Shown piece after piece: positions 14,105 through 19,936 of a stretch of DNA of 19,936 bases. The DNA is from Halobacteriaceae archaeon. Its GTDB lineage: Archaea > Halobacteriota > Halobacteria > Halobacteriales > Halobacteriaceae. Every line of letters begins with the position of its first letter. Positions within the stretch are counted from its first letter, which is position 1. The stretch spans positions 13,924 through 33,859 of the forward strand of contig JBDGTS010000022.1 of assembly GCA_042216675.1 (NCBI GenBank). Reading direction: 5' to 3'. A program made the position numbers and the translations under genes. The notes beneath the pieces are model-generated. The model searched no databases, had not been told where the DNA came from, and saw nothing but the letters and a program-made list of their open reading frames with translations.

Positions 14105-14178
14105 GGGCCGATAGCTCAGTTAGGGAGAGCGTCTGACTCTTAATCAGACGGTCGGGGGTTCAATTCCCTCTCGGCCCG
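14105..14178 (+). tRNA. tRNA-Lys (anticodon CTT)
   Basis: Acceptor stem GGGCCGA/TCGGCCC, D arm GCTC..GAGC, anticodon arm TCTGA-CT-CTT-AA-TCAGA (CTT at 14139-14141), T loop GGTTCAATTCC, no encoded CCA. TATA-like CCTATAT at 14071-14077. Confidence 0.97.
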
Positions 14179-14279
14179 CTTTCTGACGAACGGAGTGAGT
14201 CGAACGCGGCACGAGCGGAATTGAACGAGAGAACGTGAGCGAAGCGAGCGTTCGCGTGGTTCAATTCCCTCTCGGCCCG
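14157..14279. repeat. tRNA-3'-end-derived repeat element: exact 22-bp direct repeat (14157-14178 and 14258-14279), an intervening degenerate inverted copy (~14205-14226) and two hairpin-loop motifs
   Basis: GGTTCAATTCCCTCTCGGCCCG occurs twice. GAATTGAAC (14218-14226) is the reverse complement of GTTCAATTC. The loop motifs are GAACGGAGTGA (14188-14198) and GAGCGAAGCGA (14237-14247). Confidence 0.9.
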
Positions 14280-14419
14280 TCCCGCTTCCAGTCGGGTGGT
14301 GTTTCGTGCGATTCCCCGGATTCTACCTCTCGGAGACGGTGACCGACCCGTTCCTCGTGAACCGCCGGCCGCCAGCGGTGTGGCGCCGCTGCGACCCCGG
14401 GCCGCTCGCCGTGCCGGAG

Positions 14420-19733: not shown

Positions 19734-19907
19734 GGGGCTGTGGCCAAGCCAGGAATGGCGACTGACTCCAGAGGCTACAGCGCCAGGGACGAGGGACTGA
19801 TATACCGAGCGGACGGCTGATCACCGGCCGCGTTGACGACCCTCTGGAGTCCCGAGGCGCTCACCGGAGATATCAGTCGATCGGGGGTTCAAATCCCTCC
19901 GGCCCCA
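19734..19907 (+). tRNA. tRNA-Trp (anticodon CCA) with a 100-nt intron at 37/38 (19772-19871)
   Basis: Acceptor GGGGCTG/CGGCCCC-A, anticodon arm ACTGA-CT-CCA-G|intron|A-TCAGT, T loop GGTTCAAATCC. TATA-like TTTACA at 19704-19709. Confidence 0.96.
19772..19871 (+). ncRNA. Intron-encoded box C/D guide RNA directing 2'-O-methylation of C34 and U39 of pre-tRNA-Trp
   Basis: C box GGGACGA 19786-19792, D' CCGA 19805-19808, C' TTGACGA 19833-19839, D CCGA 19852-19855. Guide CCTCTGGAGT pairs with 19765-19774 and guide GACTGATA pairs with 19871-19878. The N+5 rule lands on C34 (19768) and U39 (19873). Confidence 0.9.
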
Positions 19908-19936
19908 TCTCCACCTTAATTTTACCTTATTACTGC

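What the first reader, a model, noticed from the sequence alone, without database searches (positions are those of the whole stretch)
14157..14279. Triplicated tRNA-Lys 3' end (direct-inverted-direct) stitched together by two copies of a conserved hairpin-loop motif
Seen: the last 22 nt of tRNA-Lys are repeated exactly 79 bp downstream. Between the two copies is a degenerate reverse-complement copy (CGCGGCACGAGCGGAATTGAAC versus the expected CGGGCCGAGAGGGAATTGAACC). Each change of orientation happens at a hairpin with a related 11-nt loop: CCGC.TTC.GAC-[GAACGGAGTGA]-GTC.GAA.GCGG (14176-14209) and GAATTGAAC..GAACG-T-[GAGCGAAGCGA]-G-CGTTC..GTTCAATTC (14218-14267). The loop consensus is GARCGRAGYGA. 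Inference: a plain attL/attR excision scar would give only a direct repeat. This fold-back layout instead suggests a small non-autonomous palindromic (REP/MITE-like) element that copies the adjacent sequence by template switching, possibly driven by an HUH-type enzyme in trans. If transcribed, the inverted copy could pair with the tRNA T-arm/acceptor end and affect 3' processing, or the extra copy could serve as a decoy att site for tRNA-targeting integrases. I recall similar loop motifs in haloarchaeal intergenic DNA but know of no defined mechanism.
Basis: partly seen in the sequence, partly recalled or inferred. Interest (0 to 1): 0.75.

Follow-up and report, generated by a model that had tools for sequence, protein, structure and literature searches.

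The report
Hairpin repeat appended to haloarchaeal tRNA genes
The extra copy of the tRNA-Lys end is one unit of a small hairpin-rich repeat that follows many tRNA genes in salt-loving archaea, an apparently undescribed archaeal counterpart of the long-unexplained tRNA-linked repeats of E. coli.

Summary
The last 22 nt of tRNA-Lys(CTT), tRNA positions 52-73, recur exactly 79 nt downstream. An exact 10-nt inverted copy of the T-loop region lies between them, and each turn has a hairpin.

It is not a one-off att scar. The same layout follows at least 13 of 32 called tRNA genes in this genome, plus two intron-bearing tRNAs that ARAGORN missed. The direct and inverted copies always match the local tRNA. 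An inverted-T-loop/hairpin/T-loop module was found in 143 of 151 Halobacteria genomes searched; a reversed control pattern found none.

The "11-nt loop" is really a tandem G.A mismatch, a 2-bp covarying mini-stem and a GNA triloop. It sits almost only on the tRNA-sense strand (93 GA/GA loops against 3 TC/TC).

Units form arrays of 1-3. They differ in number and swap hairpin cassettes between congeneric species, and each ends in a T-rich tract. In Haloferax, RNA-library contigs cover such units.

I found no integrase, phage or plasmid link, and no Y1/HUH gene in this genome.

Best reading: a non-coding, co-transcribed tRNA-linked repeat that spreads by local duplication and recombination. Its function is unproven. 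Earlier notes of this scan report analogous modules on other DNA.

The parts
14105..14178 (+). tRNA-Lys(CTT) gene, no encoded CCA
   Evidence: ARAGORN; Rfam RF00005 at 69.9 bits
14157..14178 (+). DR1: tRNA positions 52-73 (last two T-stem 5' bases, T-loop, T-stem 3' strand, acceptor 3' strand, discriminator)
   Evidence: Exact 22-nt repeat. Boundaries at 52 and 73 are the commonest across 65 units
14179..14187 (+). Pyrimidine-rich trailer CTTTCTGAC, which forms the 5' arm of hairpin 1
   Evidence: Sequence. Trailers are about 31% T against 16% background
14176..14209 (+). Hairpin 1, with apical motif GAACGGAGTGA at 14188-14198 (tandem G.A, then A-U and C-G pairs, then a GGA triloop)
   Evidence: Fold; motif statistics
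14205..14226 (+). Inverted copy. 14217-14226 GGAATTGAAC is an exact complement of the T-loop/T-stem part of DR1 and DR2. 14205-14216 is only a weak complement of the acceptor strand
   Evidence: I17, I19
14227..14257 (+). Hairpin 2 cassette: GAGA, GAACG (14231-14235), apical GAGCGAAGCGA (14237-14247), CGTTC (14249-14253), GCGT
   Evidence: Fold. The same cassette type, 'GAGAGAACG...CGTTCGCGTGG', follows tRNA-Leu(TAG) and tRNA-Asp in this genome
14258..14279 (+). DR2: exact second copy of tRNA positions 52-73
14280..14294 (+). TCCCGCTTCCAGTCG: a pyrimidine-rich tract after DR2 that resembles the tRNA end plus trailer (14174-14188). Probably a decayed older end/trailer copy
   Evidence: family D4 (76% identity)

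Best explanation
The feature is one unit of a family of tRNA-linked repeat modules found across the class Halobacteria.

Layout of a unit: T/C-rich trailer, GA-capped hairpin 1, inverted copy of the local T-loop/T-stem, GA-capped hairpin 2, an exact copy of tRNA positions 52-73, then another T/C-rich tract.

The unit codes for nothing and carries no enzyme. At the DNA level it arises and turns over locally. Duplication and unequal recombination or conversion between the T-loop-derived repeats make arrays of 1-3 units. The same processes delete units, keep the copy nearest the tRNA identical to it, and exchange hairpin cassettes between loci.

The unit is transcribed as a continuation of the tRNA transcript. 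There the inverted copy pairs with the extra 3'-end copy, so the unit ends in a long hairpin followed by a U-rich tract. This makes a second, tRNA-end-like termination or processing site.

Shown:
- the anatomy
- recurrence at many tRNAs and across the class
- local matching of the direct and inverted copies
- strand-specific tandem-G.A hairpins with covariation
- differences in unit number and cassette between species
- RNA-library coverage of equivalent units in Haloferax

Inferred:
- the duplication/conversion mechanism
- transcription of this particular unit
- the back-up terminator/processing role
For: Recurrence in this genome:
- 13 of 32 ARAGORN tRNAs have an exact repeat of 17 nt or more of their own 3' end 69-126 nt downstream; 12 of these repeats are 22 nt or longer. 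All have an inverted T-loop copy in between.
- Two intron-bearing tRNAs missed by ARAGORN carry two units each.
- Of 261 T-loop-like 9-mers, 22 have their complement within 75 nt upstream. 21 of the 22 lie behind tRNAs (13 direct hits, 6 opposite-strand readings of the same palindromes, 2 behind the missed tRNAs). The reversed control gave 0.

Local matching: the inverted copy matches the local T-loop variant at 8-11 of 11 positions in 12 of 12 units of this genome. At tRNA-Lys genes of other genera the direct and inverted copies follow the local variants TTCAATT, TTCAAAT and TTCAACT.

Boundaries: the repeat starts at position 52 in 43 of 65 units. It ends at 73 in 39, at 74 in 13, and at 76 only in 2 bacterial cases with an encoded CCA.

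Class-wide spread: 143 of 151 Halobacteria genomes have the module; the control pattern hit 0 of 151.

Structure: in Watson-Crick-only folds of 65 units, 2x2 internal loops are GA/GA 93 times and TC/TC 3 times. Of the 93, 30 enclose 2 bp plus a triloop, and 20 of those 30 triloops are GNA. The mini-stem covaries as GC/GC, AC/GT, GT/AC and CC/GG. The sense strand folds better than the antisense strand in 46 of 65 units.

Turnover:
- The orthologous tRNA-Lys(TTT) loci of two congeners, with flanks 92.6% identical, carry 3 and 2 units, different hairpin-2 cassettes, and a hairpin-1 stem replaced with full compensation.
- L020 and L021 differ by a unit-sized recombination.
- Module counts within one genus range from 4 to 31.

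Trailers: the 12 nt after the tRNA end and after DR2 are 31% and 32% T, against 16% background. The first base is a pyrimidine in 61 of 65 for both.

RNA: on the Haloferax gibbonsii locus L156, RNA-library contigs span tRNA-Asp and its units.
- X2 covers 50-360 at k-mer depth 917 and X3 covers 7-360 at depth 756. These libraries hold 12 and 29 million letters.
- X4 covers 1-242. Adapter-bearing ends lie at 90 and 231, which is 11 and 10 nt after the two discriminators.

No mobile-element context here: the neighbours are a TrkA_N/DHH protein, an unassigned ORF and a pilin. The two integrase-family hits are on other contigs. Phages and plasmids gave no match.
Against: - There are no RNA data for this locus or organism. 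The Haloferax evidence comes from assembled contigs, which cannot show strand, true ends or levels.
- Single mismatches in stems show no excess of G:U-type (11) over A:C-type (16). RNA-level selection on the stems is therefore not demonstrated.
- C-GNA-G triloops with tandem G.A are, from my own recall of the DNA mini-hairpin literature, the classic hyperstable single-stranded DNA hairpin. That would fit a DNA-level role equally well.
- The acceptor part of DR2 is poorly paired with the inverted copy, which is not ideal for a terminator hairpin next to the U-tract.
- About half the tRNAs, and 10 of 23 tRNA-Lys loci examined, have no repeat of their 3' end at all. An eleventh (L014) has only a 10-nt repeat. 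The unit is therefore dispensable.
- Conversion between 22-nt repeats is assumed, not shown.
- The first origin of the inverted copy is unexplained.
Confidence: 0.5

Rival explanations
1. Miniature integrase-dependent elements or att-site arrays. The direct repeats are attL/attR cores made by T-loop-targeting tyrosine integrases. The units are stripped-down, trans-mobilised integrative elements or landing pads.
For: - The repeat runs from the T-loop to the exact tRNA end, and to CCA where CCA is encoded (2 of 65 units). This is the block an integrating element must restore.
- Haloarchaeal proviruses leave 22-, 27- and 43-nt tRNA duplications (passages of PMC3119063; PMC7002104).
- Outer copies in arrays are more decayed than inner ones at L003, L020 and G003. 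This is as expected if new insertions enter at the tRNA.
- A nested insertion lies inside a DR2 in two Haloferax loci.
Against: - 79 nt is far too small for an ordinary element, and there is no integrase nearby.
- At least 15 different tRNAs in one genome carry units with shared cassettes. Known integrases are specific for one tRNA (from my own knowledge).
- A real 14.5-kb low-GC insertion at tRNA-Lys of G022 has a 28-nt repeat and no inverted-copy/hairpin module at its junction.
- No match to phages or plasmids.
Confidence: 0.15
2. REP/REPIN- or IS200-like single-stranded DNA hairpin elements are moved by a Y1/HUH enzyme in trans. They copy flanking sequence by fold-back template switching at the stable hairpin caps.
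For: - The alternating direct-inverted-direct layout.
- Strand-specific hairpins capped by DNA-type GNA triloops with tandem G.A.
- A near-perfect fold-back centred on a GA cap behind the tRNA on C18.
- GA-capped hairpin doublets and arrays that are not linked to tRNAs.
- Copy number varies 4-31 within one genus.
Against: - No PF01797 hit in this genome, and none in 7 of 25 high-quality relatives. Five of those 7 carry modules.
- The arms are not a conserved sequence as in REPs; they change with each tRNA.
- No insertion event with an empty site was caught.
Confidence: 0.12
3. A purely functional RNA module kept by selection, such as a protein-binding trailer RNA or a regulator of tRNA 3' maturation. 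The inverted copy would alternately pair with the tRNA's own T-arm or with the decoy copy.
For: - Class-wide presence.
- The tRNA-Lys unit aligns across genera at 74-80% identity over tRNA plus unit.
- Compensatory stem changes.
- Strand specificity.
- RNA-library coverage.
- The MFE with the tRNA included shows the alternative pairings.
Against: - Presence is patchy among tRNAs and species, and unit number is variable.
- Cassettes are swapped between subfamilies at one locus.
- No G:U excess.
- No 3-nt bulge, so the motif is not a canonical K-turn (sequence).
- No Rfam family matches.
Confidence: 0.18
4. A chance repeat or an assembly artefact.
For: The genome is a fragmented assembly of 58 contigs. 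Some contigs end inside such repeats.
Against: The same architecture occurs in complete genomes of cultured species, for example Halorientalis marina L003, and in 143 of 151 genomes. Reversed controls gave 0.
Confidence: 0.01

Closest known systems
E. coli tRNA-linked repeats (TLRs: the rtT/tyrT 178-bp repeats, rrA/rrB/rrF). Passages read in PMC8144298, which cites Egan & Landy 1978 and Rudd 1999
   Same: - They sit directly behind tRNA or rRNA genes in the same orientation.
- Each repeat ends in a copy (18-19 bp there, 22 nt here) of the 3' end of the upstream RNA gene.
- There are 1-5 units per locus at about ten loci.
- They are transcribed with the operon.
- Most have no known function.
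   Different: - No sequence relation: the Rfam scan at E up to 10 gave no RtT-type or other hit.
- The haloarchaeal units add an inverted T-loop copy and two hairpins capped by tandem G.A.
- They occur in a different domain, across a whole class, and behind about half of the tRNA genes.
- The copy ends at the discriminator because CCA is not encoded.
attL/attR duplications of tRNA 3' ends made by tyrosine integrases of haloarchaeal proviruses and plasmids (passages of PMC3119063; PMC7002104)
   Same: A direct repeat covering the T-loop to the tRNA 3' end. A 22-nt example is reported in Haloquadratum.
   Different: Here the repeats enclose 79 nt with no gene. The same layout is seen at many tRNAs with shared internal cassettes. 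There is no integrase nearby. A real insertion in a relative lacks the inverted-copy module.
REP/BIME/REPIN elements of bacteria
   Same: Short non-coding palindromic units in alternating orientation. They are transcribed within operons and vary in copy number.
   Different: REP arms are a conserved sequence and go with RAYT genes. Here the arms are copies of the neighbouring tRNA, the conserved part is the hairpin cap, and no Y1 gene is needed for presence.
tRNA-end hairpin modules noted earlier by this scan in DPANN archaea, Patescibacteria and Acidobacteria (e1-1472887, e1-4800053, e1-1107825, e1-2239081, e1-2366373)
   Same: A direct plus an inverted copy of the local tRNA end around hairpins, recurring behind many tRNAs. 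I saw the same layout in bacterial loci: L064, L075, L112 and L117.
   Different: Those are other lineages with other cassette sequences. The GA-capped hairpins and the class-wide spread in Halobacteria are specific to this case. The earlier notes are unchecked AI notes.

Membership tests
tRNA-linked repeats (E. coli TLR type) | Lies immediately downstream of a tRNA/rRNA gene, in the same orientation | tested here: met
   The unit starts at the base after the discriminator. The same holds at 13 of 32 tRNAs
tRNA-linked repeats (E. coli TLR type) | The 3' end of the repeat is identical to the 3' end of the upstream RNA gene (18-19 bp in E. coli) | tested here: met
   22 of 22 nt identical. The repeat ends at position 73 in 39 of 65 units and at 74 in 13
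tRNA-linked repeats (E. coli TLR type) | Several loci per genome, one to a few tandem units each | tested here: met
   At least 15 tRNA loci with 1-3 units each
tRNA-linked repeats (E. coli TLR type) | Transcribed as part of the tRNA/rRNA transcript | tested here: inconclusive
   RNA-library contigs cover equivalent units in Haloferax. There are no data for this locus, and contigs do not show strand
tRNA-linked repeats (E. coli TLR type) | Sequence homology to the enterobacterial repeats | tested here: not met
   No Rfam family other than tRNA reached even E = 10 in a meaningful way. The resemblance is one of architecture only
Integrase att scar / integrated element | Element DNA (integrase, foreign genes, deviant composition) between the repeats, or a spacer derived from a known element | tested here: not met
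   The spacer is 79 nt with no ORF. There are no phage or plasmid matches. Integrase hits are on other contigs. GC is 0.63-0.65 around the site against 0.69 for the contig
REP/RAYT (REPIN) elements | A cognate Y1/HUH (RAYT) gene in the genome | tested here: not met
   PF01797 gave 0 hits in G000 (80% complete). It is absent from 7 of 25 high-quality relatives, and 5 of those carry modules
REP/RAYT (REPIN) elements | Conserved arm sequence shared by all copies | tested here: not met
   The arms equal the local tRNA T-loop or 3' end and differ between tRNAs
MITE (transposase-derived) | Terminal inverted repeats plus a fixed-length target-site duplication made on insertion | not testable with these tools
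   The 22-nt repeat could be read as a target duplication, but no insertion/empty-site pair was found. The unit-sized differences seen lie within existing repeats
K-turn / K-loop (L7Ae-binding) RNA motif | Tandem sheared G.A pairs next to a 3-nt bulge or loop | tested here: inconclusive
   Tandem GA/GA is abundant (93 in 65 units). It is flanked by Watson-Crick pairs on both sides with no 3-nt bulge. Only a K-loop reading of the 7-nt cap remains possible. Binding was not tested

The most novel reading that the evidence does not exclude
The inverted T-loop copy acts as a guide. On the tRNA-sense strand, as single-stranded DNA or as RNA, it pairs with the T-loop of a tRNA gene or transcript. With the hyperstable GA-capped hairpins as turn-around points, this pairing directs copying of the tRNA end. 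That would make these units a self-targeting, enzyme-less or host-enzyme-driven class of hairpin element specialised on tRNA genes. It would be common to Halobacteria and, in other guises, to DPANN, CPR and other bacteria, and it would be the mechanism behind the unexplained E. coli TLRs. Alternatively, the same pairing could give cells a switch on tRNA 3' maturation.
Probability: 0.15. Interest if true: 0.85.

Novelty: new variant of a known kind. Interest (0 to 1): 0.6.

Why it matters
E. coli tRNA-linked repeats have been known since 1978, and most still have no assigned function or origin (PMC8144298, passages). This finding shows an architecturally equivalent but richer system in a whole class of archaea. 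It follows roughly half of the tRNA genes, has a defined strand-specific structural motif, changes rapidly between species, and shows evidence of transcription.

Halobacteria include genetically tractable models such as Haloferax and Halobacterium. That makes the old question directly testable: is this a terminator or processing aid, a regulatory RNA, or selfish DNA?

There is also a practical side. These units break assemblies, mimic att sites in provirus prediction, and can be mistaken for partial tRNA genes.

Tried and rejected
- **Simple att scar: rejected.** No element DNA lies between the repeats, there is no phage or plasmid match, and the layout recurs at many tRNAs.
- **HUH/Y1 driver: not supported**.
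- **Pseudo-tRNA or tRNA minihelix reading of inverted copy + hairpin 2 + DR2: rejected.** The T-loop is base-paired instead of free, and the acceptor part is barely complementary.
- **Bulge-helix-bulge intron reading** (DR1 to hairpin 2 as an intron at position 51/52): rejected by inspection. The complementary segments are not adjacent to the would-be splice sites.
- **Canonical K-turn: rejected.** There is no 3-nt bulge.
- **Coding reading of the loop** (GAR CGR AGY reads as Glu-Arg-Ser): noted, but the variable positions are explained by the covarying mini-stem.
- **Orientation of GA-capped hairpins relative to neighbouring genes.** I used a crude GC3 strand predictor on the 32 of 38 hairpins that lie at least 400 nt from a contig end. 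The result was mixed: 13 opposite/same, 7 same/opposite, 7 opposite/opposite, 5 same/same. No conclusion.
- **G:U versus A:C mismatch asymmetry as a test for RNA selection:** no signal, 11 against 16.
- **Integrated elements at tRNA-Lys** were looked for in three relatives. In G022 I found a 14.5-kb insert with a 28-nt repeat. In G028 and G030 no second copy with 4 or fewer mismatches of the right kind lies within 40 kb. None showed units used as integration sites.
- **No close relative of this genome** (same genus) was available, so no gain or loss at this very locus could be dated.
- **A Haloferax volcanii locus was not recovered** by the pattern scan. H. gibbonsii was used instead for the RNA look-up.
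- **Literature.** Searches for 'tRNA-linked repeats', haloarchaea + tRNA gene + direct repeat + integrase + MITE, Haloferax + tRNA + trailer + tRNase Z + tRNA-like and archaea + tRNA genes + inverted repeat + T-loop found no description of these archaeal units. Only CC-licensed PMC papers and bioRxiv were searched. Supplements such as sRNA or terminator tables for Haloferax could not be seen and may list such RNAs.

Full report
**1. The observation**

tRNA-Lys(CTT) lies at 14105-14178. Its last 22 nt (14157-14178) recur exactly at 14258-14279. These are the only two copies in the 2.15-Mb, 58-contig genome that holds the window.

Between them, GGAATTGAAC (14217-14226) is an exact complement of the T-loop/T-stem part of both copies (I17 and I19). 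The acceptor-strand portion scores 10 of a possible 22, against 8.2 for unrelated tRNA ends.

RNA folding reproduces both hairpins and the long pairing of the tRNA end with the inverted copy. With the whole tRNA included, the inverted copy pairs instead with the second copy. Z-scores are modest, from -1.5 to -2.7.

**2. It is not unique to tRNA-Lys**

ARAGORN tRNAs in the genome.
- 13 have an exact repeat of 17 nt or more of their own 3' end 69-126 nt downstream; 12 of these repeats are 22 nt or longer.
- All 13 have an inverted T-loop copy in between.
- 4 of the other 19 lie within 70 nt of a contig end and cannot be judged.
- Two intron-bearing tRNAs that ARAGORN missed (C45 Lys-TTT and one on C18) carry two units each.

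An independent scan looked for T-loop-like 9-mers with their complement within 75 nt upstream. It found 22 of 261. Of these, 21 lie behind tRNAs and 1 is unrelated. A reversed control found none.

The inverted copy follows the local T-loop variant in 12 of 12 units:
- AATTGAA for Lys and Gly-CCC
- AGTTGAA for Val
- ATTCGAA for Pro and Leu
- AATCGAA for His

**3. Boundaries**

I assembled 65 units: 12 from this genome and 53 from the loci.
- The repeat starts at tRNA position 52 in 43 units, at 51 in 12 and at 50 in 9.
- It ends at 73 in 39 units and at 74 in 13.
- It ends at 76 only in 2 bacterial cases whose genes encode CCA.

The start at 52 or before was forced by the search pattern in the 53 fetched loci. 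In the 12 unbiased units of this genome it is 52 in 8.

**4. The "loop"**

GARCGRAGYGA occurs 53 times, against 18-32 in simulated genomes. Of the 53, 18 sit between at least 4 perfect flanking pairs.

Positions 3 and 9 covary: G..C 27, A..T 16, A..C 7, G..T 3.

In Watson-Crick-only folds of the 65 units, 2x2 internal loops are GA/GA 93 times and TC/TC 3 times.
- 30 of the 93 enclose 2 bp plus a triloop, and 18 enclose 8 nt.
- 20 of the 30 triloops are GNA.
- The mini-stem is GC/GC, AC/GT, GT/AC or CC/GG.

So the conserved element is a structure: tandem G.A, a 2-bp stem and a GNA triloop. It sits almost only on the tRNA-sense strand. Accordingly the sense strand folds better than the antisense strand in 46 of 65 units.

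Single mismatches show no G:U-type excess, 11 against 16. The stems alone therefore do not tell RNA from single-stranded DNA. I recall, from no call, that C-GNA-G with sheared G.A is the classic hyperstable DNA mini-hairpin.

**5. Distribution**

By their record titles roughly three quarters are Halobacteria. The rest include Nitrososphaeraceae, DPANN, CPR, Acidimicrobiia, Bifidobacterium and Alphaproteobacteria.
- In 68 of the 119 loci ARAGORN finds a tRNA within the 200-nt flank. Most of these show the repeat.
- In a sample of 151 Halobacteria genomes, 143 have the module. The reversed control pattern hit 0 of 151.
- Of 23 tRNA-Lys loci, own locus included, 12 have a repeat of 16 nt or more, 1 has a 10-nt repeat and 10 have none. 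Several of the empty ones are followed at once by low-GC DNA.
- Bacterial examples share the layout and include CCA in the repeat.

**6. Dynamics**

- The orthologous tRNA-Lys(TTT) loci of two congeners have flanks 92.6% identical. They carry 3 and 2 units, hairpin-2 cassettes of different subfamilies, and a hairpin-1 stem replaced with full compensation.
- L020 and L021 differ by recombination between two inverted copies.
- Module counts in one genus range from 4 to 31.
- In two Haloferax loci a further hairpin module is inserted inside DR2.
- In H. gibbonsii a unit sits where two congeners have a second tRNA-Asp gene.
- Cassette subfamilies recur across tRNAs and genera. Examples are GAAY-CAGGGA-stem-GACCGTG-GTTC and GAGAGAACG...CGTTCGCGTGG.
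- The unit behind tRNA-Lys aligns across genera at 74-80% identity over tRNA plus unit.

**7. Context**

The neighbours are a TrkA_N/DHH-family gene, an unassigned ORF, a pilin gene, a DUF502 gene and IMP dehydrogenase. The only two integrase-family hits are on contigs C28 and C30. Y1_Tnp gave 0 hits in this genome and was found in 22 of 41 relatives.

The 141-nt region matches nothing in 50,697 phage or 72,556 plasmid records.

A genuine 14.5-kb low-GC insertion at tRNA-Lys in relative G022 is bounded by a 28-nt repeat and has no inverted-copy/hairpin module.

**8. Transcription**

The 12 nt after the tRNA end and after DR2 are equally T-rich: 31% and 32%, against 16% background. TTT occurs in 20 and 24 of 65. 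The first base is a pyrimidine in 61 of 65 in both sets.

For the H. gibbonsii locus L156 the map is tRNA-Asp 7-79, unit 1 at 80-221 and unit 2 from 222.
- RNA-library contigs of coded runs X2 and X3 span 50-360 and 7-360 at k-mer depths of about 750-900. These libraries hold 12-29 million letters, too few for DNA carry-over to give such depth.
- Run X4 covers 1-242.
- Adapter-bearing contig ends lie at 90 and 231, which is 11 and 10 nt after the two discriminators.
- One contig joins 224 to 340, a form lacking one unit.

Contigs cannot prove strand, ends or levels, so this is a hint, and it is not from the window's organism.

**9. Interpretation**

The feature is a haloarchaeal version of tRNA-linked repeats. 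E. coli TLRs share the defining traits: they lie behind tRNA or rRNA genes, end in a copy of the gene's 3' end, occur at several loci in small arrays, are co-transcribed, and have unknown function (PMC8144298, passages). They share no sequence with this unit.

I read the unit as non-coding DNA that duplicates and recombines locally through its T-loop-derived repeats. It is transcribed as a structured trailer that ends in a second tRNA-end-like hairpin plus U-tract.

The integrase, HUH and purely functional RNA readings remain as rivals. The origin of the inverted copy and the reason for the exact 52-73 block are not settled.

My four literature searches found no description of these archaeal units. 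Supplements were closed. Earlier notes of this scan report analogous modules in other lineages.

Noticed in passing
window 19760-19936: The window and contig end in a tRNA 3' half (GGGGGTTCAAATCCCTCCGGCCCCA, ending at 19908). It is preceded by about 100 nt that look like the long box-C/D-type intron of haloarchaeal tRNA-Trp; that assignment is from recall. ARAGORN did not call it. 28 nt of AT-rich sequence follow before the contig ends.
   Followed up: partly
G000:C13:46215-46480, C1:6890-7010, C55:6015-6125, C45:3380-3490 (outside the window): GA-punctuated hairpin doublets that are not linked to tRNAs. One forms a three-fold array with a 73-nt period. Watson-Crick segments are separated by nested tandem G.A loops. 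They may be the same family as the in-frame two-hairpin repeat of note e1-2647107, but I did not check this.
   Followed up: partly
L094:201-340 (minus strand as shown) and L114: In two Haloferax species the second 3'-end copy is split after TTCAAATCCC(G) by a homologous insert of about 70 nt. The insert carries a GA-cap hairpin in the opposite orientation. This is a nested insertion into a unit.
   Followed up: no
A1 (L155, L156, L153): H. denitrificans and H. larsenii have two tandem tRNA-Asp genes 33 nt apart. H. gibbonsii has a repeat unit where the second gene would be.
   Followed up: no
G000 contig ends (C4:1-60, C37:1-40 and 22480-22560, C41:19800-19872, C47:1-60): Several contigs start or stop inside tRNA-linked units or GA-capped hairpins. 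These repeats therefore break the assembly, and the unit count is a lower bound.
   Followed up: no
G000:C45:10403-10760: An intron-bearing tRNA-Lys(TTT) is followed by two units. The 33-nt trailer after the tRNA is repeated after the third 3'-end copy. The second unit is 83% identical to the window's unit, so cassettes are shared between the two tRNA-Lys genes.
   Followed up: partly
L075, L112, L117 (bacterial loci): MAGs of Alphaproteobacteria, Acidimicrobiia and Rhodospirillaceae show tandem units of trailer, inverted T-arm, hairpin and tRNA 3' end, with CCA included. The architecture is therefore not confined to archaea.
   Followed up: partly
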